Shown here one piece after another: positions 29,791 to 47,822 of a stretch of DNA of 64,000 bases. This stretch comes from a virus: IMG/VR virus record IMGVR_UViG_3300017963_000033, positions 15,320 to 79,319 of that record; one strand, given 5' to 3'. The stretch's first letter is position 1; each line of letters begins with the position of its first letter. The notes under the pieces were generated by a model that saw only the letters and a list, made by a program, of their open reading frames with translations, did not search any database and had not been told where the DNA came from. The position numbers were made by a program, and so were the translations under genes.

Positions 29791-30064
29791 GTTCTGCCTC
29801 CCTATACAAGTGGATCACTTTCTTCCGCATTGCTCCAAGGATCGCTCCCTCGAGTCCTTGCCTTTGCTGCACATCCAGCCAGGAGTACAGCCCCGCGTCC
29901 ACCAGCAGGTTGTGTAAGTCCCGTTTGATTGCCTCCCAGTCCATGCCCTCCAGAACGGGCGGGTCCTGGAGGATGCCCTGGGGGGCAGCCTCATCGGGAT
30001 CTTCTTCACGCACCAGTGAACGGTGTTTGTAGCCGTTGTTGTCTGTCCATGTAACTGCTCTCAT
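29783..30064 (-). CDS. hypothetical protein
   Basis: coupled ORF MRAVTWTD. Confidence 0.55.
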   Translation of the reverse strand: MRAVTWTDNNGYKHRSLVREEDPDEAAPQGILQDPPVLEGMDWEAIKRDLHNLLVDAGLYSWLDVQQRQGLEGAILGAMRKKVIHLYREAEHG

Positions 30065-31362
30065 ACGGCAAAGGCTCCCTTTTGCTTTCCACGCACAAGG
30101 TTCTTGAGATACCTCCATGCTTCCATTTCCCCTATGCGCGTCCCGAATGGGTTGGAAAGATCGTCCCACAACACTGAGTAACTGACATCGCCGGCATCGG
30201 CAGCCACGTCCGTTTGCAACCATCGAACCAATGCACCCGCCGACCCACAGGAGCAGACCGGCCTGCGCAGCCTGGACGTGGCCAGCCAGGCGATGATCTT
30301 GGCCCATTGATCAGAGAGACCATCACACCGCCTGCCGGCGAGATTCAATTCACTCAGGTTTCCACAATAGTAATACAACTTGACCTCATCTGGGTCCCTG
30401 CACACCGACCAGCTTGCGGCTGCCCATTGCGATTCACTGTCATCGTAGGTTGCCGGCGCGGGAACCACAATTCCCTTTTCGGCGTCTCGGATGTGGGCAC
30501 ACCCATTCTGCTCAGTCAAGGTACACGCCGCACAGCCGGCAGTTCCACAGAAGGTACAGCACCCGCCACTGATGGCTCCTGGTTGCGGTTCCCAGTACAA
30601 CACGGCGCTGACCGCCGTTGGATCATTGTACTCCCGATAGACATCTGCCTCAGTCACATAGACCCCTCCATCGTCCAAGTTGACTGATGGCACTCCATCT
30701 GCCTGGGTGGGGAAGGCTTCCCAGTTTGCCGGTTCGATAAACTGCCATTTCCAGAAGGTGGCCGTCATCACGCCGCCAGCGATGACCTTGGTGCGGGCCG
30801 GTCGGATTTCCCATTCCGGTTCGCCATTGTGCCCGGCGAAATAGACCTTGACCTCGCACTCATCGGTCAGGGTCGTGGCAATGGTCACGGTAGCTGTTTC
30901 GTTGAACCCGTCGCCATCCTCATCACTGTAGACCAGGGTTCCCCCTGCGACAGTTACTTGACCGATGAGGGTTGTGGCCCGTTGTCCCGGTTCGATGATC
31001 TTGCCATAGGCAGTGCGGATGCTTTTGTGTTGGCCTCGCACATTCAAAGCGCCGATGCTATAGTATTCCGGGCGATGGAACCGTGGAAACATCTTGACAT
31101 CTTGGGCAATCCAGCGGGGTGCCGGCCACCAGCCAAGATAGTCAGCGATGGACTGCTCGGCTATGGCAATCTCTCGGGCGATGTCCTCCCGGCTGCTGGC
31201 ATCGGCGTGTTGCCAGGGATGCTGGTAGGTGATGTCATTACACGAGTTGTCGAACGGAAACACAATCGCGCTCAGGCCCTGGTTGAAGTGGGGTGGGGTC
31301 AGGCCAATGATGGCCGCATAGCGGTCTAAAGCCAATAGGGTTGGAGTGCTTGCCCTTGCCAT
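30061..31362 (-). CDS. putative head-tail connector/virion protein (Cys-rich)
   Basis: position; AEQSIADYLGW adaptor-like motif. Confidence 0.5.
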   Translation of the reverse strand: MARASTPTLLALDRYAAIIGLTPPHFNQGLSAIVFPFDNSCNDITYQHPWQHADASSREDIAREIAIAEQSIADYLGWWPAPRWIAQDVKMFPRFHRPEYYSIGALNVRGQHKSIRTAYGKIIEPGQRATTLIGQVTVAGGTLVYSDEDGDGFNETATVTIATTLTDECEVKVYFAGHNGEPEWEIRPARTKVIAGGVMTATFWKWQFIEPANWEAFPTQADGVPSVNLDDGGVYVTEADVYREYNDPTAVSAVLYWEPQPGAISGGCCTFCGTAGCAACTLTEQNGCAHIRDAEKGIVVPAPATYDDSESQWAAASWSVCRDPDEVKLYYYCGNLSELNLAGRRCDGLSDQWAKIIAWLATSRLRRPVCSCGSAGALVRWLQTDVAADAGDVSYSVLWDDLSNPFGTRIGEMEAWRYLKNLVRGKQKGAFAV

Positions 31363-31375
31363 CTTAGTTCCCCCC

Positions 31376-31735
31376 TTATCCCCCCTGCGTATGTTCGTGC
31401 CACACGATGCGTCCCCCATAGGAGAGTAACATCGCCGCTCCGCTCAGAGCCAGCGGCAGCAACACAGGCCACCATAGCAACCCAAACAGCGCACAGAACG
31501 CGCCGGCCCACAGGGAGATGCACCAGAAGCAGGATAACTGCTTTCCCCAGAATCCCCGGTATTGTTCCTCTTTGTAGACCCCAGACCGATAGCGCAGTCG
31601 TTCAAATACATCCTTGGGACCCGCCTCCATGTAGAACATGACCGCCACGCGCCAAGTGGCCAGGACCATCACCGCTGCCTGGACAGGCCCCACGGTCAGA
31701 TATTCTCTGAGAATGTCCCACCACTCAAGCCCCAT
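31376..31735 (-). CDS. DUF1360-like membrane protein
   Basis: LATWRV..GP..FERLR..LSCFWCISLW. Confidence 0.7.
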   Translation of the reverse strand: MGLEWWDILREYLTVGPVQAAVMVLATWRVAVMFYMEAGPKDVFERLRYRSGVYKEEQYRGFWGKQLSCFWCISLWAGAFCALFGLLWWPVLLPLALSGAAMLLSYGGRIVWHEHTQGG

Positions 31736-34700
31736 CTGGCACTCCCTGCGCCATGCGCATGGCGGCGGTGTAGATCATATTCGCCCGTACCTCTCCGACG
31801 CCCCGGATGCCGGTCAACCCCTCCTGGCCCATGGCAATGACCTGCTCCAGACTGACAATGCCTTGCTCGGCAAATCCCTTGGCGATGGTGGCAGTCACCC
31901 CCGCCAGCTTCTGGGGATCAAATTTGCCGCCATTGATGGGCGCTTCATCAGTATGCGTCCCAGCCAGGATGGCGTCAATGTCCACCATCTTCGGGGGCGG
32001 TGGTGGTTCGTGTGATTCTGTTTCATTCGGCACTGCCGGCGCAACCTCAACCGCCAAGGGTTCTGGGGCTGGCAGCGGTTCCCGCTCCTGGGCCACCGGC
32101 CTGCGCTCCACGATGGGGTCAAACAGATGTTGCGCGAGGCGAATGTCCTCCCGATGAACCAGGAACTTTTCACCGCCTCCCCGGAATCCGTAATGGATCT
32201 TCCATCCCTCGCGGGTGGCTATCATGTGCAGCCCCTCGATGCGGTTCGCAAACGCAGCCGCACCGACAAGCGTATGCTGTCCCCGGTTCGGATGCCGGTA
32301 CAAGCACAAAATAAAGTCCTCATCTGCCGCCAGGTTGAGAACCGGGGCATTGGATGGTATTGCCCTACTTGGAGACGCTGCCCCAACGGGCGCTGTTTTC
32401 CTTCCACCACATCCTCCACACATCTGTATCTCTATCCTTTCATGCTTCTCCCGCAAGTATGCGAATAGGTTTTCGTGTTGCTCAGTGCCTATGTCACGGC
32501 GCTGCCCAAGATAGAAATGGTAGACCACCAGCGGTTCTGGCACCCTGCGAAAGCACTTGCCTGCCTTTGCCAGCCGCCACCAATAATCCACATCCTCCCA
32601 GGAGACCATGTGGGTGTCAAATCCCCCTACCTCATCGTGCCACGCCTTTGGAACCAGAGAAGTAATGAGGTTCCAGGTAAAGACCGAGCGCGGGTCTCCT
32701 TCCGGTTGCCGCTGTGCCCTGGCTACATCATACTCCGGGGCCTCATAGCGGATGGCGGTCAAGCCATCATCTTGTCGCCACAGGATATTGCGTTGCAGCT
32801 TCTCAGACAGGCCCCCTGGGTCCTCGATGAATGCCTTGCCCACATAATCGCTGTAGACAATGGATTCCTGTACGTCCCATTCGCTCAACATCCGTTCGAT
32901 GGCGTGGGGATACAGCCAATCATCGGCGTCCAAAAACAATAGGAATGGTGCCCTGGCAAACATGGCTCCAAAGTTACGGGCCGCCCCGGCTCCCTCTTGC
33001 CGTCCTATGCCCCGCCATTTCACAAACGGATAGGCGTCCATCAGGCGCTGGGGCGCAGGCTGTTCGCTGTCCCAGACGACGATGGTTTCCCATCTTCGGA
33101 AGGTCTGGGCCTCAATAGAGTCCAGGGCATCCTCCAGGGGCTCCACATGCCTGGGACCCGCCACGGGGATGATGACGCTGACAACGGGCTCATCATACTG
33201 CCGCACCGGATGGCTCAGGCGCTGTGGGGTGGCATAGGAGGCGAATGGATGCTTGCCATCTTGGACCCATGGATGCCAGGCCAGCCAGTCCGGTTCCTGG
33301 TAGTCCTGGGCACCTGAGACACGCCCGGACATCCAGGAATAGATGAACAGGGGTTCTGCGGTGACCTTTTTGCCCTTCCAACCGTAGGCCCCTGCCCTCA
33401 GCCAGAATTCGGCATCCTCGGCCCCGGCCCCGATGGGACAGTACCGCTTTTTGTAGCCTCCCAGGGCCTGCCACATCTCACGCCTGAACACGCAACAAGT
33501 AGGCACCTGATTCTGTTTCTTGAGTTGATTGTCAAAGTTCCAGTCTGCCGGCCAGGGGCTGACCCCCGTGGACCCATCTTGTTTCACCCAGCGCAATCCG
33601 GTGTAGGCAACGCCCAGGCTGTTGTCCAGTTCCATTGCCCGGACACATCGTTCTATCAGTTCAGGTTCCATGGCATCGTCGGCATCGAGACAGCAGATGT
33701 AGGTGGCCTCGGTGTGTTCGATGCCGGTGTTTCTGGCAACCGCCACACCCTGGTTGTTCTGATGGACGTAACGCACCCGCCGATCTCGCTGGCCCCATTC
33801 CGCAACCGCTGTGGCGGTGGCTCCCTCATCCGGGGAGCCATCGTCCACGACGATGATGTCCACAATCTGGTCATAGGTCTGTTCGATGGCGCTCTCGATG
33901 GCCCGACCGACCTTGGCGGCATACAGATAGCTTGGAATGATGATGGCTACGGTGGGTTCAGGTCGCGTAAGGGCTTGCTCAAAGACCTGGGCCACCTTCT
34001 GGCAAGCCATCTCCCAGGTATAGGGCTTTACCATGTGTCTGGCGTTTGCCCCCAGGGTGTCCCGGTGTTTCAGGCAGTAGGCCAGCCCATCAATCAGGTC
34101 CCCAATGTCCCCCGGCCTGGCCAGGTAGCCGTTGGTGCCGTGCTCAACCAGGTCCAGGTTGCCACCATGGGCATACCCCAGCACCGGGACCCCCGCAGCC
34201 ATGGCCTCTAGGACCCCGATGCCAAAGGTTTCCTTGGTAGTGCTGAGGTAGACGTTGGCTCCCTGGACCAGTTGCCGCATCTGCTCATGGGGCACGACGC
34301 CAATCTCTGAGATATTGGTCCGACGCCTGCGCGGTGCAAAAGTTGTGACAAAGTGATTGTGAACGAAGGCGGTGGCCAGGTCGCTGAGAGGGCTGGGGTC
34401 GCACACGTCTCCCTGTCGATTCTTGTTCCACAGGATGTACCCCCCGTTTGGCCTGTCATGTTGCCATTCATCCCACTCGATGCCATGGCCCACGACCACC
34501 GGGATGCGCCTCATGTCGCGGATGACCGACTCGGCCACCCAGGCGCTGGGGACGGTGATTACCCTGGCCTGGCGCATGGTTTCGATGACACTGGCGTTGG
34601 CTTTGTACTCCCAGCCTGCGGCGGCATAATCCGCCGACCAGTAGAGGCCATGGGTCATGGCCACGTCCACGTGTTCTGTGTTCGTGCCAGCATGGCTGAC

Positions 34701-34841
34701 CTTGAGGTCATAGGACTCGCCTTCGCTCACGAATTCCACACCAAATGTGGGGCAGTGGCGATGGTATGCCTCTACGACACGTTTGATGCCCGATTCCTCA
34801 GAGCGAAAGTGTTGAAGCTCTGGGAGCATCCAGACTTTCAT
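31725..34841 (-). CDS. triple glycosyltransferase (GT4+GT2+GT2) with C-terminal HhH domain
   Basis: ETFGIGVLEAMAAGVPV; VVDDGS..ARNTG..LDADD; ARNFG..LDADD..WED; LTGIRGVGEVRA. Confidence 0.9.
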   Translation of the reverse strand: MKVWMLPELQHFRSEESGIKRVVEAYHRHCPTFGVEFVSEGESYDLKVSHAGTNTEHVDVAMTHGLYWSADYAAAGWEYKANASVIETMRQARVITVPSAWVAESVIRDMRRIPVVVGHGIEWDEWQHDRPNGGYILWNKNRQGDVCDPSPLSDLATAFVHNHFVTTFAPRRRRTNISEIGVVPHEQMRQLVQGANVYLSTTKETFGIGVLEAMAAGVPVLGYAHGGNLDLVEHGTNGYLARPGDIGDLIDGLAYCLKHRDTLGANARHMVKPYTWEMACQKVAQVFEQALTRPEPTVAIIIPSYLYAAKVGRAIESAIEQTYDQIVDIIVVDDGSPDEGATATAVAEWGQRDRRVRYVHQNNQGVAVARNTGIEHTEATYICCLDADDAMEPELIERCVRAMELDNSLGVAYTGLRWVKQDGSTGVSPWPADWNFDNQLKKQNQVPTCCVFRREMWQALGGYKKRYCPIGAGAEDAEFWLRAGAYGWKGKKVTAEPLFIYSWMSGRVSGAQDYQEPDWLAWHPWVQDGKHPFASYATPQRLSHPVRQYDEPVVSVIIPVAGPRHVEPLEDALDSIEAQTFRRWETIVVWDSEQPAPQRLMDAYPFVKWRGIGRQEGAGAARNFGAMFARAPFLLFLDADDWLYPHAIERMLSEWDVQESIVYSDYVGKAFIEDPGGLSEKLQRNILWRQDDGLTAIRYEAPEYDVARAQRQPEGDPRSVFTWNLITSLVPKAWHDEVGGFDTHMVSWEDVDYWWRLAKAGKCFRRVPEPLVVYHFYLGQRRDIGTEQHENLFAYLREKHERIEIQMCGGCGGRKTAPVGAASPSRAIPSNAPVLNLAADEDFILCLYRHPNRGQHTLVGAAAFANRIEGLHMIATREGWKIHYGFRGGGEKFLVHREDIRLAQHLFDPIVERRPVAQEREPLPAPEPLAVEVAPAVPNETESHEPPPPPKMVDIDAILAGTHTDEAPINGGKFDPQKLAGVTATIAKGFAEQGIVSLEQVIAMGQEGLTGIRGVGEVRANMIYTAAMRMAQGVPDGA

Positions 34842-35101
34842 AACTTGAGTCCTCTCACAGCCATCTGGGGCACCAGAATCTGCGGCCTCTTGGGATGTTG
34901 TCGCTCAAACATCTGCGAAGCCAACCCGATGAATGTCTGTGCAGACGACAGGCAGATGAGCGCCCTGTCCTGTTCTGGCACGTGCTCATTCATCAGCACA
35001 ATGATCTCCCCCGTCTCGGGATGGAATCCCACCTGGGCAAAGATGGGCACTTGTATCCCGGCTGGGACCTCCTCCACTCCCCCCTGTTCTTCCTCACTCA
35101 T
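34838..35101 (-). CDS. hypothetical protein
   Basis: SD, coupled. Confidence 0.55.
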   Translation of the reverse strand: MSEEEQGGVEEVPAGIQVPIFAQVGFHPETGEIIVLMNEHVPEQDRALICLSSAQTFIGLASQMFERQHPKRPQILVPQMAVRGLKL

Positions 35102-35633
35102 CGGTGTCTCCTTTCTGTAGAGAACCTTCGCACAGCCAGATGCTGCGCTCCATGTTGCGATACTCCACGACGGTTGCGCCTATCTTGCGCACCCTGTCCC
35201 AGTAGTGTTTGAGATGCCACAGCATCTCTGCGTCATCCCTGACCTTTCCAGGTCCATCGCCACGATATTGGCACTCAATCAACGCCCTGCGGCTGTGGGC
35301 ATGGATGGCTTTCAAAGTTCTGTGCATACTGGGCATATAGGGCAGCACCGAGAAACAGAGGATGAGGTCATACCTCAGCCGCTTGTCCAACCATTCCAGC
35401 AGGTCCTCCTCATGGATGCTGATGCCATTGCCCTCACACCGCGCCCGCGTTGTTTTCACAATCTCCGGGTCGTGGTCCACGCCGTCCACGATGACCGCGC
35501 CCGCTTCCCGCATCTTGAGCAGCAAATCCCCATGGCCACACCCCAGGTCGGCCACCAACAGGTCCCGAAAGTCTATAGCCTGGCTGATGATCTGCCATTG
35601 CTCAGGACCCCTGCGGTTCACAAACCCTGACAC
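35094..35633 (-). CDS. class I SAM-dependent methyltransferase
   Basis: VADLGCGHG, GVD, YDLILCFSVL. Confidence 0.85.
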   Translation of the reverse strand: MSGFVNRRGPEQWQIISQAIDFRDLLVADLGCGHGDLLLKMREAGAVIVDGVDHDPEIVKTTRARCEGNGISIHEEDLLEWLDKRLRYDLILCFSVLPYMPSMHRTLKAIHAHSRRALIECQYRGDGPGKVRDDAEMLWHLKHYWDRVRKIGATVVEYRNMERSIWLCEGSLQKGDTDE

Positions 35634-36049
35634 AGTTCCTCCATCGTCCGGTGCAGCCAGTAGGCGTCTCCCTCCCGCCGCTTGTCTGGCCTCGGGTCAT
35701 CCCACATCCTGGATTCTCCAAAGTCAATCAGGTAGGGTTTGTTGCCCCTGACGATTACTGCGTACTTGGTCAGGTCGCCATGTCGGATGCCAGCCCTCTG
35801 CAAGGCAGCCAGGACCAGGTATTCATGGGCCATGAATGCTTCCCGGTTTGTGACCGGCTGGCCTTCTCCCAGGTCCTGCATCCTGATCAACTCGATGTCC
35901 ACTTGCTCGGCGTAGGGCACATATCCCGAGTCTTTTAGCGACAGAAGCGCATAAATCTCATTGTCGGTCATGTACTTGGGCTGCCGCTTCCAGATCCAGC
36001 CATCCTCGCGCCAGACGCGGCTGATGCCGTTATCGGTAATCAAGCTCAT
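35618..36049 (-). CDS. small protein-kinase-like phosphotransferase
   Basis: HGDL..VIV..YLIDFG. Confidence 0.8.
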   Translation of the reverse strand: MSLITDNGISRVWREDGWIWKRQPKYMTDNEIYALLSLKDSGYVPYAEQVDIELIRMQDLGEGQPVTNREAFMAHEYLVLAALQRAGIRHGDLTKYAVIVRGNKPYLIDFGESRMWDDPRPDKRREGDAYWLHRTMEELCQGL

Positions 36050-36752
36050 CGAGTAGTTCTCCGAAATACTGTTCGGCCAGGGCCTTTTCCTCCGGGCCAA
36101 ACTCGTTGCGCCAGTCCCCCACGATGCCTTTTCTCAGAAAGCGCAACTGAAAGTCCCTGCCATAGTTCAGGGAATGCCCGTTCGTCTTTGTCCACTCCCT
36201 GCGGTTGTGGAAGGACTGCCGCGCCACGACCGCCTCAACATCCTTCACCGGCTGGAGATGCAGCGTGTGCAGGATGCGCCATAGCTCAAGTGTGGTATCC
36301 TTATGCAACCACTCGTAGCGGGTCACACACTCAGGTAGCCCCGAGGACATCCATGCCCGCACCCAGGGAACCAGTCCCCCTCCATGTGGCATGGGCCACT
36401 TGCCCTGGCCCAGACAATGGATGTACTCTAACAAGGGCCTGTCCCAATGATGCGCCCCTGAGACACAGATGTCCCGAGGGTCCCGCAGTACCAAAACTAT
36501 CTTCTCGGAGGTAAGGTGCTCATAGGCCAGTTCCGTATGTTTGGGCGACAGTACATTTCCCCCTGGGACAGGGACAGGGTGCCCCTGTCCAATATAATGT
36601 TCCCCCTGCCGGCCCTGGCCTTCTGTGGCGATTGCCTTGGGTGTCGAGGGAGGGTGGATGGCTCCCACTGGCGAATCCAGCACATCCCCCAACAGGCGGG
36701 ACAGCCACGTGGTCCCGCTCTTCGGATACCCTACGACCAGGATCTTGGTCAC
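36030..36752 (-). CDS. PAPS-dependent sulfotransferase
   Basis: YPKSGTTWL, RDPRD..VS, RYE, RKGIVGDWRN. Confidence 0.9.
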   Translation of the reverse strand: MTKILVVGYPKSGTTWLSRLLGDVLDSPVGAIHPPSTPKAIATEGQGRQGEHYIGQGHPVPVPGGNVLSPKHTELAYEHLTSEKIVLVLRDPRDICVSGAHHWDRPLLEYIHCLGQGKWPMPHGGGLVPWVRAWMSSGLPECVTRYEWLHKDTTLELWRILHTLHLQPVKDVEAVVARQSFHNRREWTKTNGHSLNYGRDFQLRFLRKGIVGDWRNEFGPEEKALAEQYFGELLDELDYR

Positions 36753-37567
36753 CGCTCAACCCCTACCAGATACCGATGCCCCAGGCGGTGCCCAGGGACC
36801 TCGTAGTCGAACCATTCATATCCCGGCTTGCTTTCCGCAAACTGCTCAAAGTAGGAACGGTTCTCTAGGCCCTGAAAGTGGGTCTGGTATAGAATGACAT
36901 AGCCCCTGGTCCGCACATTGCCCAGGACAAAGTCCCGTAGCTCAAAAGGAACCTCCGACAGGGAGCAGGCGGCGATGAAGAGATCGTAGGTGATGGAGCA
37001 GACTACCTGCTCAAACCACTCGGGTTTCCAGTAGATGAACACCCGTGGCACTCCTGTCTGAGAACAGTAATAGTGTTGGAGCCATGACAGCTCAGGCAGA
37101 TCATAAATGACGTGGACTCCCTCAAAGCCAAGCTGGTAGCAGAGTCTGGCCATCGAGCCGTATCCGCCCCCGAATTCGAGGATGGCCCTGGCATCATCTT
37201 CCACCCGTTTCCCGGCCTTGTCCTCCCACTGTTTGAGAATGTACGCCTGGTGGACCATCTGTCCGCTGGCATCCTCCCATGCTTTCATCCTCGTAGGAGC
37301 CCCAAAGGTCGTCTCCCGGATGCCCCTCTGCCAGCGCCACCAGCCATCCTTTTTCAGTTCGTCCAGTTCCATGTTGGCCTGGGGCGAGTCCCCCACAAAC
37401 AGGGCTTCGTGAACGATGGGCCAGGTGAGGAACAGGCTGGGGTCATCGTTCAGGATCTTTTCCCGAATTTCAGCCTGCCGGCGAATCCAGGTAAATCTGG
37501 GATAGTCGCCCGGTGGATTCATGGGTGGCAGGTCCCTGATGGCCTGCCGCAGTTCCTTTTTATCCAT
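36749..37567 (-). CDS. putative sugar O-methyltransferase
   Basis: ILEFGGGYGSMAR, YDLPE...Q..Y, DLFIA..SLSE. Confidence 0.75.
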   Translation of the reverse strand: MDKKELRQAIRDLPPMNPPGDYPRFTWIRRQAEIREKILNDDPSLFLTWPIVHEALFVGDSPQANMELDELKKDGWWRWQRGIRETTFGAPTRMKAWEDASGQMVHQAYILKQWEDKAGKRVEDDARAILEFGGGYGSMARLCYQLGFEGVHVIYDLPELSWLQHYYCSQTGVPRVFIYWKPEWFEQVVCSITYDLFIAACSLSEVPFELRDFVLGNVRTRGYVILYQTHFQGLENRSYFEQFAESKPGYEWFDYEVPGHRLGHRYLVGVER

Positions 37568-38762
37568 GGGGACCTCTCTTGGTGACACAGTAGCTGGCGA
37601 TGCAATTTGCGATGCGCTCCATCTCGGGCCTGCCCAGGCCCTGGTGGCAGCCCACATAGAAACCATATTTGTTCAGCCATGCGGCCACCGGATAATCACT
37701 GGGGTCCCACATCCCCTCGTAGGCCGGTTGGTCTGTCAGGCGCAACATCTCCCGAGTCTCAACGCCATGAGCCTCCAGGTAGTTGCACAGGCCCCACTTG
37801 TCCTCCCCGAGGCCATGGGCGACGATGGGATACATCATGTAAGCGTGGCTGGTGTCCAACCTGGTGAGCGGCCTCTGGATGTAGCCCTGGCGCTCGACCT
37901 CCTCCAATAGTTCGGAAAGATACTTGGCGTTCTCCCGCCGCTGGGCTATCATCTGCGGCCAGTCAGGCAATTGCCCCAGGGCCAACGCCGCCTCCAGCTC
38001 TGTCACCCGGAAGGAATGCCCGATGGACTGGAAATTGAATCTGCGCTCCACGACCTCCCTCAGCCGGTCGCTGGAAAGCCCATCGTCGTCGTCAATGCTC
38101 AGGTAGATGCCATCCCGCCCATGGTTGACCAGGGAGCGCATCTTGACCGCTAAGTCCGGGTCGTTGGTCGTCGCCACACCACCAACCCCAGCAGTCAGCA
38201 AGTGGGCCACATAAAGGCTGAAACACCCAATATCTCCCCAGGAGCCTACGCGCTTGCGTCCATGGTCCACAAACATGGTCTCACAGGAATCCTCGATGAT
38301 CTTGAGCCCTTGATTTCTGGCGATCATGTGGACTGCTGTCATGTTACATGGCATCCCAAACAGGTGGACTGGGATGATGGCCCTCGTCTTTTCGGTGATG
38401 GCCCGTTGGATCTTGCTGGGGTTGATGCCATAGTAGTCCGGTTCCACGTCCACCAGGACAGGTGTCATCCGGTTGTGCAGCACGATGTTGACCGTGGCGA
38501 CGAAGGTGCAGGCCGGGACAAGGACCTCGTCCCCATCCTGCCAGCCATGTAGTTCCTTGAGCGCCTGGAGCGCAACCTGGAGGCTGCTGGTGCCACTGTT
38601 GGACAGGACGGCATGGGCGCAGTCGTGGATGTTGGCGAATTGGGTCTCAAAGATTCTGGACATCGGGCCGTAGCTGATGCGCCCGGTGGCCAGCACGGTG
38701 TCCACCAGTTCCCGCATCCTGCTCGTGACCTCGAAGGTGCCCACCCCTATCTTGTCCATCAT
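37560..38762 (-). CDS. PLP-dependent DegT-fold enzyme, ColD-like NDP-sugar 3-dehydratase
   Basis: SNSGTS, IPVHLFG, IEDSC; FSLYVAH has His at the usual Schiff-base Lys; no E1 Fe-S cysteines after HGRD. Confidence 0.75.
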   Translation of the reverse strand: MMDKIGVGTFEVTSRMRELVDTVLATGRISYGPMSRIFETQFANIHDCAHAVLSNSGTSSLQVALQALKELHGWQDGDEVLVPACTFVATVNIVLHNRMTPVLVDVEPDYYGINPSKIQRAITEKTRAIIPVHLFGMPCNMTAVHMIARNQGLKIIEDSCETMFVDHGRKRVGSWGDIGCFSLYVAHLLTAGVGGVATTNDPDLAVKMRSLVNHGRDGIYLSIDDDDGLSSDRLREVVERRFNFQSIGHSFRVTELEAALALGQLPDWPQMIAQRRENAKYLSELLEEVERQGYIQRPLTRLDTSHAYMMYPIVAHGLGEDKWGLCNYLEAHGVETREMLRLTDQPAYEGMWDPSDYPVAAWLNKYGFYVGCHQGLGRPEMERIANCIASYCVTKRGPHG

Positions 38763-39499
38763 ACCTCCCACGGGGCCAGCAGGCCATCCTTGCGCATCTT
38801 TTCCACATCTCCCGGCTCAATTTCAGCCGTCAGTAGTTTTCCCGAGTCCCCCCCGCGCATGGCCAGACATACGCGAAGCGGCCATTGTCTAGTGCCCAGG
38901 ACGATGACCTCCTGGTAATGCGACAGCCGCACGGTTCCCTGTAACTCGACTTCGTGGGGCGATTCCCCAGGAATCAGGACCTGGCGCAGGTGCTGCTTAC
39001 GCCAGAACCCCGGCATCAAACTCAGGTGGTAGGGTGAACCCGGCATCGACTTGACCAGGTCCAAGCGGCCCACGTGCCCGTAGGCTTGCATCCCCATGGC
39101 ATAGAGCCGGTCCCCACAAACATCCATCTTGGCGACGTACTCAAATTGGAGCATGTAGCGGTAGAGGATGTCCAGGGCCTCGCTGTCCACCGGCCTGATG
39201 GGCCACATATCCTCCAGGAGCAGCAGAAAGACCTCCTCCTGCCGCTCATCCAGAAACTTGATGAGGGCATCAGACCACTTGTCGAATGGATACATTTCCT
39301 GGGGTCCGATGCTGTGGAAGGTCCAGGATTCTGGCAGGTCAAAGGTGGGCTGGCTGAATCCTCCCACCACGACCTTGGGCATGGGTTTCCAGTATCGCTC
39401 CATCAGCCACGCGAGGGGCCTGAGCGCCGGCAGGTACTTGTCGCATGTCGTGACAAAGATGGTGTACTCAGCCACGACCACCCCCAAACCGCGCCTCAT
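38759..39499 (-). CDS. putative GT-A fold glycosyltransferase
   Basis: TCDKY, WSD.L, LLLLED, FWRK, ESPHEVE. Confidence 0.55.
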   Translation of the reverse strand: MRRGLGVVVAEYTIFVTTCDKYLPALRPLAWLMERYWKPMPKVVVGGFSQPTFDLPESWTFHSIGPQEMYPFDKWSDALIKFLDERQEEVFLLLLEDMWPIRPVDSEALDILYRYMLQFEYVAKMDVCGDRLYAMGMQAYGHVGRLDLVKSMPGSPYHLSLMPGFWRKQHLRQVLIPGESPHEVELQGTVRLSHYQEVIVLGTRQWPLRVCLAMRGGDSGKLLTAEIEPGDVEKMRKDGLLAPWEV

Positions 39500-40499
39500 A
39501 GTCTGCGAACATATCCCGCAGGGTGGTTTCCATCGGCGTATCTGGTATCCATCCTAGTAGGTCCCTGAGCCGTGTGGTGTCGGGGGCGCGTCTGGCGTGT
39601 CCATCCGGTTTGCTGGTGTCGAATTGATAGGCGATGTCTTTGCCCGAGAGGGTCACAATCGACTGGACAAGGTCGGAGATCCTGATCTCCTGCCTGTGCC
39701 CGATGTTGATTGGCCCAGCGTCCCACGCCGCTTGGCAATAGGCCAGGCGCACGAGAGCCCTGGCGATGTCTCTGACATCAACCAATGTGCGTGTTTGATT
39801 GCCGCTGCCCCAGACTTTCAGCGGATTCTCTCCCTCCATGACGCGCCTGATCAAGGCCGGCGCAACGTGGGACGCATTGGGTTCGTAGTGATCTCTTGGT
39901 CCAAAGACGTTAAAAAGGCGCACGATGACGCACGGGACATTGTGCTCTCTGTAAAGGTGCCGCACCATCTGCTCCCCTACCCACTTGGCGATTCCATAGC
40001 CATGGTTTGTGGGCTCTGGATTGCAGATGTCGCCCGCGCTTTCTGGTGTCGGGACCGGCGCGTCCCCCGGATAGACACAGGCAGTGCTGATATAGACAAA
40101 CAGACGTGGTTTGCAGATTCGCACCGAGTCGATCATCGACTGGTTGATGGCCAGGTTCGCCCGCAGCATCTCGTATTGGTTGCGCCGGTTGTACTCGATG
40201 CCGGCAACCTTGGCTGCCAGGTGCCAGACCACGTCCGTTGGCTTACAAGGATAGCCAGTATGTTCAAGGTTCCGGGGCTGCAATCGTACCTGCCCCGTTT
40301 TCATGGACCCATACAGGTTGTCCATCTTTCCTCGGGAAAAGTCATCAACCACGGTTACGCTGTGGTGGATGTCCACCAGGGCATCTACCAGATGGGACCC
40401 GATGAATCCAGCTCCCCCAGTGACGATGTGATTGCCGCCACTTGGAGGCACATCCCCTTCCCACTGCGGCAACGGTGTCGCAGTCGTTCTGTCTCCCAT
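39468..40499 (-). CDS. NAD-dependent epimerase/reductase, GDP-fucose synthase/ColC-like
   Basis: TGGAGFIG, STACVYP, YGIAK, SHVAPAL, VWGSG, KPDG. Confidence 0.85.
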   Translation of the reverse strand: MGDRTTATPLPQWEGDVPPSGGNHIVTGGAGFIGSHLVDALVDIHHSVTVVDDFSRGKMDNLYGSMKTGQVRLQPRNLEHTGYPCKPTDVVWHLAAKVAGIEYNRRNQYEMLRANLAINQSMIDSVRICKPRLFVYISTACVYPGDAPVPTPESAGDICNPEPTNHGYGIAKWVGEQMVRHLYREHNVPCVIVRLFNVFGPRDHYEPNASHVAPALIRRVMEGENPLKVWGSGNQTRTLVDVRDIARALVRLAYCQAAWDAGPINIGHRQEIRISDLVQSIVTLSGKDIAYQFDTSKPDGHARRAPDTTRLRDLLGWIPDTPMETTLRDMFADYEARFGGGRG

Positions 40500-40680
40500 T
40501 TCTGTCTCCTTTCTCAAACGGGGGTGGTGCAGAAAGGAGACTCAAAATCACCACCCCCGCGACTTGCCCCGAAGGGCAAGCATGATTCCCAACCGCCCGG
40601 ACAATCTCCTTTCTTGGCGGCATTCACCTTTTGAAGGGGAGGATCAGTTGCCTGACCCTCCCATCATCACGGTTCAACTA
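40500..40680 (-). promoter_or_regulatory. structured intercistronic RNA with anti-SD and decoy SD
   Basis: four hairpins (GCAA and UUCG tetraloops); loop GTCTCCTTTCT complementary to the SD AGAAAGGAGAC and to a second copy in another loop. Confidence 0.65.
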
Positions 40681-40683
40681 CAA

Positions 40684-42117
40684 CTACCGCTGGCCACCAG
40701 GGAACCAGACCGCGTAGCGCGTCCCAGCCGTCCGGTAGCTCACGCCACCATCAACATGGTACGGGCTGGAGAAGTCAGGTTCGCGCAGGTGCTGGAGCGG
40801 CGTGTAGCGCACATTCTGGAGCGCACCAGCAAGCTGGGGCGTCCTCAACACCACACGCTGTTCCGTCTTGAGCGATAGGCTGTAGCACCATCGCTGTTCC
40901 AGGTACGACCAGGAATATGCGCCGGCATCGGTGTGGAACCAGGACTGCCGGTTCCGCAACTGCGCCTCATCGGCAGCCGCCTGCCGATAATCCACATACT
41001 CCCGATACGTCACCGGGAACCCGCCGTTGACCGTGATCGGCACGGCGTAGATGGTGCTGGCAAACTCGCCGGCTGCCAGGTTGGCGTTGTTGGCGTTGTT
41101 GTGCTCAAAGATGCCGGTGTCCTCGATGACATCGTACCAGATGCCGTTGATGGGGATCTGGTTGCGGGTGCGCATGTCGTCGCGCATCTGGACGTTGACA
41201 TTGTCGTTGATGACGGCAGCGTTGTAGCCCACTTGGGCCGTTTTGCAGCGATTGGTCAGGTAGGAGCAAGGCCAGCAGGCCGACAGCTCGAACCACAACT
41301 GGGGACGCATGGCGAGGACCCAGCGCACCGGCTGCAAGCCAGTGTCGGTGGCCAGCGATTCCAGGTAGTACATCATCGCGCTCAGGTACTCGACAATCTC
41401 CAGCGTGGTGCCGCACACGTCGTTGTAGGCAAAGTTCTTGATGTCCGAGTCCAGCGAGGCGCAGGCACCGCCACTGGCAGCATCCACCTGCCCGGTGGCA
41501 ATCTGCACCGTCAGTCCGGGGAAGGTCCCGGCAGCCACAGTGCCCTGCCATAGGTCGGTGTGCAGGGCCATCTCCATGTACGCGCCTGTTTTCAGCATCT
41601 CCATCTTGGTGATGACATTCAGCGCGTCCTCGGTTGTGATGTTGCCTGGGGTGAGGTTGGTGCCTCCGAGAACAGCATCCCCGACGAATCGCAGGTCTCG
41701 GAAGTCGCCCCGGTTGATCCGCAACATCACCTTGTCCATCTCGATCTCCTGGGTATCGAACCTCTTGAGACCGAAATAGGCGGTCAGTTGGCACCCTTTT
41801 TCGTAGCCTGTTGGGGCCGCCGCACAGGCGTTGGTCGGCTGGGTGCCGCTCGGGGCCGTAAAGCCGGTCAGCGTCCAATACCTGGGGTCCTCGTCCACGG
41901 ACGGGAACAGCGGCAGGACGCTGGAAATCGACTTGGGCCTGACATAGGTGCTGAACACATCGGGTTCCGCACCGAGTTGGGCAAAGACACCGCCGAGGCC
42001 ATGCAGCTTCTGGGCCGTCATCACCCCGCCTGCGGTGTGTTTTTGCAGGTCCATCTCCTTGCGGAATTCCGTAATGCTTTTCTCCAGAAAGTCCATGAAC
42101 AGTAGATCGTTACTCAT
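40684..42117 (-). CDS. major capsid protein
   Basis: size, position after protease/scaffold, strong codon bias, LWQG..FPGL and EQRVVLRTPQLAG motifs. Confidence 0.8.
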   Translation of the reverse strand: MSNDLLFMDFLEKSITEFRKEMDLQKHTAGGVMTAQKLHGLGGVFAQLGAEPDVFSTYVRPKSISSVLPLFPSVDEDPRYWTLTGFTAPSGTQPTNACAAAPTGYEKGCQLTAYFGLKRFDTQEIEMDKVMLRINRGDFRDLRFVGDAVLGGTNLTPGNITTEDALNVITKMEMLKTGAYMEMALHTDLWQGTVAAGTFPGLTVQIATGQVDAASGGACASLDSDIKNFAYNDVCGTTLEIVEYLSAMMYYLESLATDTGLQPVRWVLAMRPQLWFELSACWPCSYLTNRCKTAQVGYNAAVINDNVNVQMRDDMRTRNQIPINGIWYDVIEDTGIFEHNNANNANLAAGEFASTIYAVPITVNGGFPVTYREYVDYRQAAADEAQLRNRQSWFHTDAGAYSWSYLEQRWCYSLSLKTEQRVVLRTPQLAGALQNVRYTPLQHLREPDFSSPYHVDGGVSYRTAGTRYAVWFPGGQR

Positions 42118-42118
42118 G

Positions 42119-43672: not shown

Positions 43673-43679
43673 GGTTCTA

Positions 43680-43775
43680 CTCCCACAACACAAAAAGCCG
43701 CCCCTCGGGCGACCAGAGATTCCCTATCGCCACAAAGAAGCGGCCCACCTTTCGGCCAGCCATGTGCTTTTCTGT
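43680..43775 (-). promoter_or_regulatory. leader attenuator of the head operon
   Basis: GCCGCTTC..GGGGCGGC+TTTTT terminator overlapped by an upstream GAAA-loop hairpin. Confidence 0.55.
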
Positions 43776-43782
43776 CAACTAC

Positions 43783-43811
43783 ATTATAGCCTATGACTGG
43801 CGTTTTGTCAA
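43783..43811 (-). promoter_or_regulatory. consensus sigma70 promoter
   Basis: TTGACA-17-TATAAT. Confidence 0.85.
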
Positions 43812-43817
43812 GACAGT

Positions 43818-43997
43818 TTAGCCCTGGTCTTTGCACCCCTCCCGCAGGACGCGCTTGCCGGCCTTGCGCAGGTCGGCGGTTGTGGTGTCATGCCCCAGTT
43901 TCGTTTTCTCTATGAGACAGACCATCTGGAGGAGGAGGCTGCGCAGTTCCTGCCAGAACTGCTCATCCTGGGTGTGGCAGTCGCCGTTACAAGCCAT
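43818..43997 (-). CDS. 59-aa hypothetical protein (below the ORF-track cutoff)
   Basis: MACNGDCHTQDEQFWQELRSLLL...; start coupled to the upstream stop. Confidence 0.5.
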   Translation of the reverse strand: MACNGDCHTQDEQFWQELRSLLLQMVCLIEKTKLGHDTTTADLRKAGKRVLREGCKDQG

Positions 43998-47171: not shown

Positions 47172-47822
47172 CTACCCTGCATACCCGTGGCAGCCCCAGA
47201 AAAAGCTGACGGTGCTGCCATTGGTCGCGTTCCATACCTGGACCCATATCTTGGTGCCCACATCCACCCTGGGCATTCGCCCTTCGGCAGGAAGGCCCGA
47301 GCTGAATGGACCCCCGCTGGTGATAAACATTCCCTCTGACCACTGTCCCGCACTGATGGCCGCCGCGCTGGTGCCGGTGCCATAGATCAGCCTGATTCTG
47401 TAGGGCGTCGAGTGATCGGTATCTGTGACCAGGACGGTGTGCGCGTCAAACTTCACATAGGTACTAATAGTCGGATTGTCGCCCGTCCCGCAGATGGGAA
47501 TGGCGGTGCCCCAGGTGTTGTTGCCGCTGGTAGCCACGAATGGCCTATTGACGTTAGCCTCGATGGCATTGGTTTCATCTGGCGCGGCTACGGCCCCCCA
47601 CCAGCGTTCCCGACTGTGGAAATGCTTTTCAATCTCGTGGACCCGATAGGCCAAAGAATTGCTGGTGCCGGCCAGGCCATCGGTGGACGCGCTGTCAATC
47701 TTCAAGATTTCAGGACTATCCACCCCCTGTGCAGCGAGGATAGCAGCCACATCAGCCTGGAGCTGCGCAACGGCAGCCTCCATGGCCCCAATATCATAGG
47801 CCAGTACAATCTGTCCCATCAT
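47172..47822 (-). CDS. putative head decoration protein
   Basis: coiled coil plus beta domain, coupled to portal. Confidence 0.5.
   Translation of the reverse strand: MMGQIVLAYDIGAMEAAVAQLQADVAAILAAQGVDSPEILKIDSASTDGLAGTSNSLAYRVHEIEKHFHSRERWWGAVAAPDETNAIEANVNRPFVATSGNNTWGTAIPICGTGDNPTISTYVKFDAHTVLVTDTDHSTPYRIRLIYGTGTSAAAISAGQWSEGMFITSGGPFSSGLPAEGRMPRVDVGTKIWVQVWNATNGSTVSFFWGCHGYAG

What the first reader, a model, noticed from the sequence alone, without database searches (positions are those of the whole stretch)
31376..40499. Glycan-building locus inserted between the capsid and neck genes (dideoxy sugar, O-methyl, sulfate, phosphate)
Seen: ten tightly packed genes directly after the MCP. 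They are an SDR epimerase/reductase, a GT-A-like protein, a PLP enzyme, a sugar O-MTase, a sulfotransferase, a kinase, a second MTase, a hypothetical, a 1038-aa triple GT and DUF1360. Known: some mycobacteriophages glycosylate capsid and tail tube using GTs encoded in the virion operon. Inference: this phage also makes its own donor sugar and may methylate, sulfate and phosphorylate the glycan, giving a complex anionic virion coat. I know of no described tailed-phage pathway this elaborate.
Basis: partly seen in the sequence, partly recalled or inferred. Interest (0 to 1): 0.88.

Follow-up and report, generated by a model that had tools for sequence, protein, structure and literature searches.

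The report
Variable sugar-coat locus beside phage capsid gene
A complete 79-kb uncultured tailed phage carries, between its probable capsid gene and its tail genes, a nine-kilobase set of sugar-building and sugar-decorating enzymes; a large family of related phages has the same three-part glycosyltransferase at the same spot with a different enzyme set each time, which suggests, but does not prove, that these phages coat their particles with variable glycans.

Summary
The ten genes are real, lie at the stated coordinates on the minus strand, and overlap end to end.

**Enzyme calls**
- Seven pass curated family thresholds.
- The O-methyltransferase and the "GT-A-like" calls are weaker.
- The "MCP" and "neck" labels rest on gene order only.

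**New here**
1. The PLP enzyme has His in place of the Schiff-base Lys, which marks a ColD/E1-type 3-dehydrase. Its neighbour is a GDP-fucose-synthase-like SDR. Together they form a GDP-3,6-dideoxyhexose (colitose-like) branch that needs host GDP-4-keto-6-deoxymannose.
2. The locus is not a one-off insertion.
   - Of 59 non-redundant related viral loci with enough downstream sequence, 49 have the GT4-GT2-GT2 enzyme after the MCP homologue.
   - The MCP-to-GT distance runs from 85 bp to about 9.8 kb (5.8 kb in this window).
   - Catalytic motifs are invariant in all 39 full-length homologues.
   - Tailoring genes are swapped even between close relatives.
3. Two pairs travel together and are fused in some relatives: sulfotransferase with O-MTase, and kinase with MTase.

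**What argues against other targets**
- No enzyme has a membrane segment.
- The genome has no lipid-carrier priming transferase.
- It has no 5mC oxidase or thymidylate-synthase homologue.

**Verdict**
Virion-protein glycosylation is the best reading (about 0.55), but the acceptor is unproven. Both structure predictions failed. The scan also noted this same stretch in a second reading of the same genome, and on no other DNA.

The parts
43783..43811 (-). Perfect sigma-70 consensus promoter (TTGACA-17-TATAAT) upstream of the scaffold-like gene. Likely start of the scaffold-MCP-glycan transcription unit.
   Evidence: 12 of 12 matches. This is a pattern match only.
42119..43693 (-). 524-aa scaffold-like protein with an acidic coiled-coil C-terminus (context gene).
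   Evidence: phrog_19463, function unknown. Conserved upstream of the MCP homologue in relatives.
40684..42117 (-). 477-aa putative major capsid protein (context gene; label from gene order only).
   Evidence: At least 1145 homologues and 729 representatives at 50% identity. Most conserved gene versus relative G001, at 76%. No Pfam, PHROG or PDB match. AF2 failed.
40500..40683 (-). 184-nt spacer with three hairpins, including GGGGGTGGTG...CACCACCCCC just before the SDR ribosome-binding site. Possible attenuator between the abundant capsid gene and the enzymes.
   Evidence: read from the sequence. Function is inferred.
39468..40499 (-). Extended SDR of the GDP-sugar 3,5-epimerase/4-reductase kind (Fcl/GMER/ColC-like).
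   Evidence: PF01370 at 170 bits. Best NCBIfam hit is GDP-L-fucose synthase, E 1e-44. Best PDB hit is GDP-L-fucose synthase 7LL6, E 2e-39. YxxxK and the Cys of the STAC motif are present.
38759..39499 (-). 246-aa phage-specific protein, possibly a GT-A-fold glycosyltransferase. It is the commonest accessory gene of the cassette.
   Evidence: No family hit. Conserved ED motif. Weak Foldseek GT6 hits on a poor model. Homologues found in 21-26 relative loci.
37560..38771 (-). DegT-family PMP-dependent sugar 3-dehydrase (ColD/E1-like), with His190 in place of the Schiff-base lysine.
   Evidence: PF01041 at 279 bits. Best NCBIfam hit is RfbH. His aligns with K186 of perosamine synthase 3BN1. His is kept in 11 of 17 lineage homologues; the other 6 have Lys.
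36749..37666 (-). Class-I-like methyltransferase, putative sugar O-MTase. The true start is probably near 37567.
   Evidence: TIGR04371 at E 1e-5, below cut-off. Atlas neighbours are 'sugar O-methyltransferase' or MTS; the Atlas model has pTM 0.91. Co-occurs with the sulfotransferase in 5 of 5 loci and is fused to it in L084.
36030..36752 (-). Soluble PAPS-dependent sulfotransferase (SULT-like).
   Evidence: PF00685 at 72 bits. The 5'-PSB, 3'-PB and GxxGxxR motifs align to human SULT2A1.
35618..36100 (-). Minimal RIO/Bud32-like kinase of 143-160 aa.
   Evidence: PF01163 at 27.6 bits. HGD and DFG are present; the loop Asn is replaced by Ala. Fused to an MTase in L080 and L082.
35094..35633 (-). 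Class-I SAM methyltransferase, partner of the kinase.
   Evidence: PF13489, PF13649 and PF08242 over cut-off. Found in kinase-MTase fusions in relatives.
34838..35101 (-). 87-aa ORF of unknown function. No homologue was found in any related locus.
31725..34841 (-). 1038-aa GT4-GT2-GT2 glycosyltransferase with a CxxC/beta module and an (HhH)2-like tail. This is the conserved core of the locus.
   Evidence: One search gives the domains. EX7E, DAD and DAD are invariant in 39 of 39 homologues. At least 1343 homologues exist. It lies downstream of the MCP homologue in 49 of 59 loci.
31376..31735 (-). 119-aa DUF1360 membrane protein, the only hydrophobic protein of the locus.
   Evidence: PF07098 at 26.4 bits. 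Hydrophobic stretch at residues 67-105. Present after the GT in a subset of relatives.
30061..31419 (-). Conserved 452-aa gene that follows the GT across the lineage. Presumed head-completion or neck protein; unverified. The true start is probably near 31362.
   Evidence: for synteny. No family hit.

Best explanation
**What it is.** The locus is a virion-module glycosylation system that a large uncultured phage lineage shares.

**Proposed mechanism (the order of steps is inferred):**
1. The late promoter drives the scaffold gene, the MCP, then the enzymes. Transcription is probably damped by the hairpins after the MCP gene.
2. Host GDP-mannose is converted by host GMD to GDP-4-keto-6-deoxymannose.
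3. The phage ColD-like PMP enzyme removes the 3-OH.
4. The Fcl/ColC-like SDR epimerises and reduces the product to a GDP-3,6-dideoxyhexose.
5. The soluble GT4-GT2-GT2 enzyme builds an oligo- or polysaccharide on a cytoplasmic acceptor. The GT-A-like protein probably helps. The most likely acceptor is the capsid and/or tail-tube protein during assembly.
6. Two two-enzyme modules finish the glycan. Sulfotransferase plus O-MTase add sulfate and methyl. Kinase plus MTase add a phosphate that is then methylated, as WbdD does on E. coli O9a O-antigen.

**Consequence.** The tailoring genes are exchanged between relatives, so each phage would carry its own glycan type.

**Shown here:** the gene content, the catalytic motifs, the His-for-Lys change, the synteny and the variability.

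**Inferred:** the donor sugar, the order of steps, the capping chemistry and the acceptor.
For: **Position**
- The locus sits between TerL/portal/scaffold/MCP-candidate and the tape measure/Dit genes, on the same strand, with overlapping stops and starts.

**Lineage-wide linkage**
- 49 of 59 non-redundant loci have the tri-domain GT after the MCP homologue, followed by the g452 homologue.
- In the L007 type the GT starts 85-89 bp after the MCP gene, with no other gene between.
- The MCP and GT families are of similar size: at least 1145 and at least 1343 proteins.

**Purifying selection**
- E204, E212, D386, D388, D638 and D640 are invariant in 39 of 39 homologues.

**Dideoxy branch**
- His190 aligns to the catalytic Lys of perosamine synthase.
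- The His is conserved in orthologues.
- RfbH is the best NCBIfam model.
- The SDR's best matches are GDP-fucose synthases.
- GT10 fucosyltransferase-like genes occur in 5 relatives and in G001.

**Soluble system**
- No enzyme has a TM segment.
- The genome has no Bac_transf or Glycos_transf_4 primer.

**Capping pairs**
- ST-OMT and kinase-MTase co-occur and are fused in relatives.
- The WbdD precedent is described in PMC3482155 (abstract listed).

**Precedents**
- Mycobacteriophages glycosylate capsid and tail tube with GTs plus an O-MTase (PMC11600133, PMC12363180, PMC12619734). In Corndog, genes 36-38, of which gp38 is named a glycosyltransferase in PMC12363180, lie just before the capsid protease gene.
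- Chloroviruses and Mimivirus make their own nucleotide sugars for capsid or fibre glycans (PMC4691112).
Against: - No direct evidence identifies the acceptor.
- The MCP label is unverified by fold or family.
- The GT shows no detectable sequence similarity to mycobacteriophage GTs: tblastn against 50,697 phage records gave only weak GT2-domain hits and none in mycobacteriophages.
- About half of the best GT homologues carry an (HhH)2-type tail, which is more typical of DNA-binding proteins.
- A C5 cytosine methylase is present 12 kb away.
- The multi-domain GT plus a kinase/MTase terminator is also the logic of ABC-transporter-dependent O-antigen synthesis, so host export machinery could in principle take the product.
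- The host, and therefore its supply of GMD and PAPS, is unknown.
Confidence: 0.55

Rival explanations
1. Host-surface remodelling. The phage enzymes act on a host undecaprenyl-linked intermediate, or on S-layer or wall polymers. Host exporters then place an altered, capped glycan on the cell surface. The effect would be to block superinfection or to change adsorption of competing phages.
For: - A multi-domain polymerising GT plus a kinase/MTase terminator mirrors ABC-transporter-dependent O-antigen systems (PMC3482155, listed).
- The variability resembles that of O-antigen loci.
- The genome has features seen in temperate or plasmid-like elements, such as FtsK and IstB-like proteins.
Against: - The genome has no priming phosphoglycosyltransferase, and none of the cassette enzymes has a membrane segment, so the cassette holds no flippase or transporter.
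- The genes sit in the late structural operon between capsid and tail genes in essentially every relative. That is a poor place for a function needed early or in lysogeny.
- The GT abuts the MCP gene directly in the simplest relatives.
Confidence: 0.18
2. DNA hypermodification. The GT, tethered by its (HhH)2 tail, glycosylates phage DNA, and the tailoring enzymes decorate that glycan to block restriction.
For: - HHH_5 hit in the tail: E 1.2e-3 in the window. PF14520 is precomputed on many homologues.
- Weak RAD51-N and NusA (HhH)2 alignments.
- A C5 cytosine methylase lies at 52319-53131.
- N6_N4 methylase genes sit inside the cassettes of 6 relatives.
Against: - The genome has no Tet/JBP dioxygenase and no thymidylate-synthase-type hydroxymethylase, so there is no known route to a hydroxymethyl acceptor base.
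- Known DNA-glycan pathways cluster the GT with C5-MT/5mYOX or ThyS (bioRxiv 10.1101/2023.12.21.572611). Here the methylase is 12 kb away.
- No DNA polymerase was found among the ten large early-arm proteins scanned; the replication-type hits there were an initiator-type HTH and an IstB-like loader.
- Six lineage GTs lack any tail, and the tail is the least conserved part.
Confidence: 0.08
3. Another cytoplasmic acceptor or product. The cassette modifies a non-structural phage or host protein, or makes a free glycoconjugate. Its place next to the capsid gene would then reflect only a tolerated insertion hot-spot for accessory genes.
For: - Gaps between head and tail modules are common sites for accessory genes.
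- Unrelated genes (DNA methylases, LamG-like proteins) also occur in this gap in relatives.
- hyp87 and DUF1360 have no assigned role.
Against: - A hot-spot does not explain why one specific tri-domain GT is kept there in 49 of 59 loci, across MCP identities down to 34-37%, with invariant catalytic residues.
Confidence: 0.1

Closest known systems
Mycobacteriophage virion glycosylation (Che8, Corndog, Myrna; Freeman et al. 2023, as cited in PMC11600133, PMC12363180 and PMC12619734)
   Same: - The glycosyltransferases, with an O-methyltransferase in cluster O phages, are encoded in the virion structure operon next to head genes. In Corndog, genes 36-38 lie just upstream of the capsid protease gene.
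- The enzymes are soluble.
- The target is the particle's own capsid and tail-tube subunits.
   Different: - No sequence similarity was detected.
- Here there is one fused GT4-GT2-GT2 enzyme rather than separate small GTs.
- Here the locus adds a nucleotide-sugar branch (3-dehydrase plus reductase), a sulfotransferase, a kinase and extra MTases.
- Here the gene content is hypervariable across a large aquatic or sediment lineage.
- Glycosylation of these particles has not been shown.
Autonomous glycosylation of giant viruses (PBCV-1 GMD/GMER and capsid glycans; the Mimivirus nine-gene cluster with R141, L136 and L142) (PMC4691112)
   Same: - The virus encodes both GTs and nucleotide-sugar enzymes: an SDR epimerase/reductase on GDP-4-keto-6-deoxymannose, a DegT-family PLP enzyme, an acetyltransferase, and O-methylation.
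- The purpose is to decorate its own particle.
- Gene clusters vary by clade.
   Different: - Those are eukaryotic viruses with unrelated capsids.
- They encode the 4,6-dehydratase themselves, whereas this phage does not.
- No sulfotransferase or kinase/MTase cap is described in that review.
GDP-L-colitose pathway, ColD/ColC (PDB 2GMS, 3GR9), and CDP-sugar E1 dehydrase RfbH (3BCX)
   Same: - A DegT-fold enzyme with His in place of the Schiff-base Lys.
- It is paired with an Fcl-like reductase.
   Different: - Identity to ColD is low: phmmer E 3e-30, ranked below the aminotransferases.
- Nucleotide specificity and product stereochemistry are unknown.
- The E1-type Fe-S motif was not examined.
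- No GMD or ManC lies in the locus.
WbdD, the bifunctional kinase/methyltransferase chain terminator of E. coli O9a O-antigen (PMC3482155)
   Same: - A protein-kinase-fold enzyme and a class-I SAM MTase work as a pair on a glycan made by multi-domain GTs.
- The pair is fused in some relatives.
   Different: - No sequence match to WbdD.
- The domain order is reversed in the fusions.
- There is no coiled-coil ruler or membrane anchor.
- The activity is untested.

Membership tests
DegT/DnrJ/EryC1 PLP/PMP sugar enzymes, 3-dehydrase subclass (ColD, E1/RfbH) | DegT fold, with His replacing the internal-aldimine Lys | tested here: met
   PF01041 at 279 bits. His190 aligns to K186 of 3BN1. The His is conserved in 11 lineage orthologues. 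RfbH is the top NCBIfam model, though below its equivalog cut-off.
DegT/DnrJ/EryC1 PLP/PMP sugar enzymes, 3-dehydrase subclass (ColD, E1/RfbH) | Acts on GDP-4-keto-6-deoxymannose (ColD) rather than on a CDP- or dTDP-sugar | tested here: inconclusive
   The best PDB matches are GDP-perosamine synthases, and the partner SDR is Fcl-like. No assay was possible.
Extended SDR, GDP-4-keto-6-deoxymannose 3,5-epimerase/4-reductase (Fcl/GMER/ColC) | Rossmann GxxGxxG, a Ser/Thr-Tyr-Lys triad, and the epimerisation Cys/His pair | tested here: inconclusive
   GGAGFIGSH, the Thr and Cys of ISTACVYP, and YGIAK are present. The position of the E. coli Fcl His (recalled, not aligned here) appears to be Arg in the query and Asn in the best PDB hit. 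The score is below the NCBIfam equivalog cut-off: 153 of 500.
PAPS-dependent sulfotransferases (Sulfotransfer_1) | 5'-PSB loop PKxGTTW, 3'-PB RxxxDxxVS and the C-terminal GxxGxxK/R motif | tested here: met
   YPKSGTTWL, RDPRDICVSG and RKGIVGDWRN align to SULT2A1. PF00685 at 72 bits.
GT4 (GT-B) and GT2 (GT-A) glycosyltransferases | The EX7E motif (GT4) and the DXD motif (GT2) | tested here: met
   E204-x7-E212, D386-A-D388 and D638-A-D640. All are invariant in 39 of 39 homologues.
RIO/Bud32-type atypical kinases | Catalytic loop HxDLxxxN, a metal-binding DFG-like Asp, and an N-lobe Lys | tested here: inconclusive
   HGDLTKYAV has Ala where the Asn is expected. DFG is present. PF01163 at 27.6 bits, over cut-off. 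The protein is only 143-160 aa.
Mycobacteriophage-type virion glycosylation system | GT genes inside the virion structural operon | tested here: met
   for the window. for Corndog.
Mycobacteriophage-type virion glycosylation system | Homology of the GTs to Che8 gp110 or Corndog gp38 | tested here: not met
   tblastn of the 1038-aa GT against the phage collection gave no mycobacteriophage hit at E <= 1e-8.
Mycobacteriophage-type virion glycosylation system | Glycans attached to capsid and tail-tube subunits | not testable with these tools
Phage DNA glycan hypermodification clusters (C5-MT/5mYOX or ThyS plus GT) | The GT is clustered with an enzyme that makes a hydroxymethyl pyrimidine | tested here: not met
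   No Tet_JBP or Thymidylat_synt in the genome. The only C5-MT is 12 kb away.
Lipid-carrier-dependent surface polysaccharide pathways (Wzx/Wzy or ABC type) | An initiating phosphoglycosyltransferase and membrane export components | tested here: not met
   No PF02397 or PF00953 in the genome. No TM segment in any enzyme of the locus. Wzx, Wzy and ABC families were not searched one by one.
HK97-fold major capsid proteins (label of the flanking gene) | An HK97 fold, or membership of a capsid family | tested here: inconclusive
   No Pfam, PHROG or PDB hit as single sequence or as profile. AF2 gave pLDDT 30. Support comes only from gene order, family size and conservation.

The most novel reading that the evidence does not exclude
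A widespread, uncultured lineage of aquatic and sediment tailed phages carries an O-antigen-like 'serotype' locus for its own particles. A conserved three-domain glycosyltransferase next to the capsid gene works with a freely exchanged set of enzymes: deoxy- and amino-sugar, methyl, sulfate and methyl-phosphate enzymes. Close relatives would therefore display different, partly anionic glycan coats. That would make virion glycan diversity a general and evolvable trait of tailed phages outside the mycobacteriophages.
Probability: 0.4. Interest if true: 0.85.

Novelty: new variant of a known kind. Interest (0 to 1): 0.72.

Why it matters
**What is known.** In the literature found here, virion glycosylation of tailed phages has been shown experimentally only in a few mycobacteriophages. 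There it uses GTs and an O-methyltransferase, and it alters antibody recognition.

**What would change if this reading holds.**
- Particle glycosylation would be common in environmental phages. More than a thousand capsid and GT homologues were found.
- It would be chemically rich: 3,6-dideoxy and amino sugars, sulfate, and methyl-phosphate.
- It would be under diversifying exchange like bacterial O-antigens.

**Follow-on questions.** What selects on phage surfaces in nature: grazers, host sensors of capsid proteins, or adhesion to exopolymers?

**Practical output.** The locus offers a set of soluble, compact glycan-tailoring enzymes. It also gives a simple genomic marker, the MCP-linked tri-domain GT, for finding such phages.

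Tried and rejected
**Structure**
- AF2 of the MCP candidate with a 6-sequence alignment gave pLDDT 30 and was unusable.
- AF2 of the 246-aa protein with 3 sequences gave pLDDT 45. Foldseek then gave no hit at E <= 1e-3, only weak GT6-type rows.

**MCP candidate and neighbouring structural genes**
- MCP profiles were run against PDB sequences and PHROGs: nothing.
- PHROGs on homologues of g452, g174, g499 and g216b, and on the large gene upstream of the MCP homologue in relatives: nothing.

**Relatives among known phages**
- Megablast of the locus and tblastn of the MCP against 50,697 phage records gave no match.

- Complex prediction (GT tail with MCP) was unavailable, and nothing was folded.

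**Specific ideas tested without result**
- WbdD similarity of the kinase-MTase fusion: no PDB sequence match.
- PDB search of the GT tail: only non-significant (HhH)2 rows.

**Host**
- MCP relatives in species genomes occur only on MAG contigs with scattered labels: Anaerolineae, CPR groups, Gemmatimonadota, Thermotogae, and Planctomycetes in NCBI names. No host can be named.

**Expression and habitat**
- No RNA holder was listed among the sequencing runs.

No Pfam TGT hit occurs in the genome, although a Vut_1 transporter is present.

Full report
**Setting**

The window is bases 15320-79319 of a 79,319-bp IMG/VR virus record with terminal repeats, rated complete. Genes from about 18 kb to 62 kb of the window run on the minus strand.

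In transcription order they include:
- a C5 cytosine methylase (52319-53131);
- a large terminase (50265-51527, Terminase_6C);
- a portal fused to a MuF-like head-morphogenesis domain (47819-50146);
- several small head-module genes;
- a beta-helix protein;
- a scaffold-like acidic protein (42119-43693);
- a 477-aa protein (40684-42117);
- the ten genes of the finding;
- a conserved 452-aa gene, then a 499-aa protein with a BNR/Ycf48-like propeller;
- a tape measure (23970-27467) and Dit (23044-23973).

The locus therefore lies inside the structural module. A perfect sigma-70 consensus promoter sits before the scaffold-like gene. The 184-nt spacer after the 477-aa gene holds three hairpins just ahead of the SDR's ribosome-binding site.

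**Checking the observation**

The ten ORFs are at the stated coordinates, and neighbours overlap by a few bases.

Curated thresholds are passed by:
- the SDR (PF01370, 170 bits);
- the DegT enzyme (279 bits);
- the sulfotransferase (72 bits);
- the small RIO-type kinase (27.6 bits);
- the second MTase;
- the GT4 and GT2 domains of the 1038-aa protein;
- DUF1360.

Motifs are intact in the sulfotransferase and the GT.
- The sulfotransferase aligns to human SULT2A1 through all three PAPS-binding motifs.
- The GT has EX7E at residue 204 and DAD at 386 and 638.

Two calls are weaker.
- The 305-aa protein is probably an O-MTase. It has a sub-threshold TIGR04371 hit and Atlas neighbours of MTase type.
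- The 246-aa protein has no family. Support is only a conserved ED motif at the end of a beta strand, a poor model, and Foldseek rows to GT6 enzymes at E about 1e-2.

The 'MCP' and 'neck' labels could not be verified. No Pfam, PHROG or PDB-sequence hit appeared, even with profiles of 25-33 sequences. The single AF2 attempt failed.

Four things favour the MCP label:
- the gene follows a scaffold-like gene;
- it is the most conserved gene versus the closest complete relative, at 76%;
- it founds a very large family, with at least 1145 proteins and 729 representatives at 50% identity;
- the large terminase (Pfam), the portal's MuF-like domain, the tape measure (PHROG) and Dit (Pfam) flank the region.

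An independent re-assembly of public reads carries 29500-43000 in one contig without a difference, so the arrangement is not a chimera of the original assembly.

**The sugar branch**

In the alignment to Caulobacter GDP-perosamine synthase, the Schiff-base lysine (FSFFGNK) faces His190 of the phage enzyme (FSLYVAH). Loss of that lysine to histidine is the known mark of the PMP-dependent 3-dehydrases ColD and E1/RfbH. This is established knowledge of the family. RfbH is also the best NCBIfam model.

Among 17 DegT homologues found in cassettes of relatives, 11 keep His (with GVGG). Six are ordinary aminotransferases with Lys (with GDGG).

The adjacent SDR matches GDP-L-fucose synthases best. ColC would be expected to do the same.

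The genome has no other SDR of the GMD type and no sugar nucleotidyltransferase. The phage can therefore only divert host GDP-4-keto-6-deoxymannose into a GDP-3,6-dideoxyhexose.

GT10 fucosyltransferase-like genes occur in five relatives, over the Pfam cut-off. A sub-threshold GT10-like hit occurs in G001. Both fit GDP-deoxyhexose donors.

**The lineage**

Searching viral contigs with the MCP candidate and with the GT gave 76 non-redundant loci.

- Of the 59 loci with at least 3 kb downstream of the MCP homologue, 49 show the GT4-GT2-GT2 homologue downstream. Where sequence continues, the g452, g499 and chaperone-like homologues and the tape measure usually follow.
- The MCP-to-GT distance ranges from 85-89 bp (L007 and L009 types, no gene between) to about 9.8 kb. 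In the window it is 5.8 kb.
- Two of the six loci without a GT within 9-10 kb already show cassette genes at their far end. One (L061) truly goes from the MCP homologue to DUF1360 and g452 without a GT.
- All six catalytic acidic residues of the three GT domains are invariant in 39 full-length homologues.

Clustering 310 cassette ORFs gave these recurrent families:
- the 246-aa protein (21-26 loci);
- SDRs;
- small GT2-like proteins;
- DegT enzymes;
- the O-MTase and sulfotransferase;
- the kinase and MTase;
- GT10;
- FkbM and other MTases;
- GT1-like proteins;
- N6/N4 DNA methylases (six loci).

The closest complete relative is G001, at 87.7 kb and 76% MCP identity. It keeps the SDR, the 246-aa protein, the ColD-like enzyme, the GT, DUF1360 and g452. 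It replaces the O-MTase, sulfotransferase, kinase, MTase and hyp87 with five identifiable genes and a 249-aa protein of no known family:
- a CmcI-type rhamnosyl O-MTase (185 bits);
- a GNAT;
- a second DegT;
- a hexapeptide-like protein;
- a GT10-like protein.

The picture is a conserved core enzyme with a replaceable tailoring set, much like an O-antigen locus.

**Paired modules**

- The sulfotransferase occurs with the 305-aa MTase in five of five loci. The two are one polypeptide in L084.
- The kinase occurs with a class-I MTase. The two are fused in L080 (APH/RIO plus Methyltransf_23) and in L082.

A kinase and a SAM methyltransferase acting together on a glycan end is the mechanism of WbdD. 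WbdD phosphorylates and then methylates the terminal mannose of the E. coli O9a O-antigen to stop elongation (PMC3482155, listed). There is no sequence match to WbdD. This is therefore a 'works like' proposal only.

**Which acceptor?**

For virion proteins:
- the conserved place between capsid and tail genes;
- the same strand and operon;
- direct abutment of the MCP and GT genes in the simplest relatives;
- the similar size of the two families;
- the solubility of every enzyme;
- the absence of priming phosphoglycosyltransferases;
- the mycobacteriophage precedent. GTs and an O-MTase are encoded in the virion operon there, and glycans sit on capsid and tail-tube subunits (PMC11600133, PMC12363180, PMC12619734). 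In Corndog, genes 36-38, of which gp38 is named a glycosyltransferase in PMC12363180, lie just before the capsid protease gene;
- the giant-virus precedent of self-made nucleotide sugars for particle glycans (PMC4691112).

For DNA:
- the GT carries a C-terminal (HhH)2-like module. It scores E 1.2e-3 in the window and is annotated on many homologues;
- the genome has a C5 methylase.

Against DNA:
- there is no Tet/JBP oxidase and no thymidylate-synthase homologue;
- known DNA-glycan clusters keep those enzymes next to the GT;
- the tail is the least conserved part of the GT and is missing in six homologues.

For the host surface:
- the architecture resembles ABC-type O-antigen assembly.

Against the host surface:
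- late-operon placement;
- no membrane components.

My weights are: virion proteins about 0.55, host surface about 0.18, another cytoplasmic product about 0.10, and DNA about 0.08.

**Novelty**

No cultured phage in the 50,697-record collection resembles the locus, the MCP candidate or the full GT. I found no paper describing an MCP-linked variable glycan cassette in tailed phages. A literature blank is weak evidence.

The kind of system, virus-encoded particle glycosylation, is known. The variant is new in four ways:
- a fused tri-domain GT as a lineage core gene;
- a nucleotide-sugar branch;
- sulfate and kinase/MTase modules;
- O-antigen-like gene exchange.

The host is unknown. MAG labels of related contigs are scattered across phyla. 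The DNA is held by a sediment run and a seawater run that may be one data set and may be its source.

**Limits**

- Gene calls in relatives are my own longest-ORF calls, so the fusions should be re-checked on the raw contigs.
- The acceptor, the donor sugar and the capping chemistry are inferences.

Noticed in passing
window 43997-45559 (-): A 520-aa right-handed beta-helix protein with a twin-arginine-like N-terminus (MFISRRGFFKL) sits inside the head module. It could be an exported polysaccharide depolymerase or a head fibre.
   Followed up: no
window 43783-43811 (-) and 40500-40683 (-): A perfect TTGACA-17-TATAAT promoter lies before the scaffold-like gene. Three hairpins lie in the MCP-SDR spacer, the last directly before the SDR ribosome-binding site.
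   Followed up: partly
window 28291-29790 (-): The 499-aa protein at the major-tail-protein position ends in a BNR/Ycf48-like beta-propeller (PF14870, 30.7 bits). It is conserved at 35-74% identity across the lineage. It may be a glycan-binding tail decoration.
   Followed up: no
window 31725-32459 (-), GT residues 795-1038: After the third GT domain come three elements: a CxxC plus a ~70-aa beta-rich module (in 33 of 39 homologues), a Pro-rich linker, and an (HhH)2-like tail (on roughly half of the best homologues). The role of a DNA-binding-type tail on this enzyme is unexplained.
   Followed up: partly
window 52319-53131, 53490-54476, 54451-55062 (-): A C5 cytosine DNA methylase (154 bits), DUF5131 and a Vut_1 (YhhQ-type) transporter lie upstream of the terminase.
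   Followed up: partly
L084:14342-15865; L080:14942-15931; L082:15657-16679: Relatives carry apparent gene fusions: sulfotransferase with O-MTase, and kinase with MTase. These link the separate window genes in pairs.
   Followed up: partly
L024:11430-12713 and five other loci: N6_N4-type DNA methylase genes sit inside the MCP-GT cassette of six relatives, among the sugar genes.
   Followed up: no
L016/L017 (G001, 87,740 bp): The 'terminal repeat' of this relative is exactly 127 bp. It looks like an assembly overlap of a circular or permuted genome, and its glycan locus spans the contig ends.
   Followed up: yes
L094-L107 (genome contigs) and NCBI names: Contigs of this phage lineage are binned into MAGs of many unrelated phyla (CPR groups, Anaerolineae, Gemmatimonadota, Thermotogae, Planctomycetes). 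This is probably mis-binning rather than host evidence.
   Followed up: partly
window 14953-16314 (+), 6924-7865 (+): An FtsK/SpoIIIE ATPase and an IstB-like loader lie on the early arm. No DNA polymerase was seen among the large early genes scanned.
   Followed up: no
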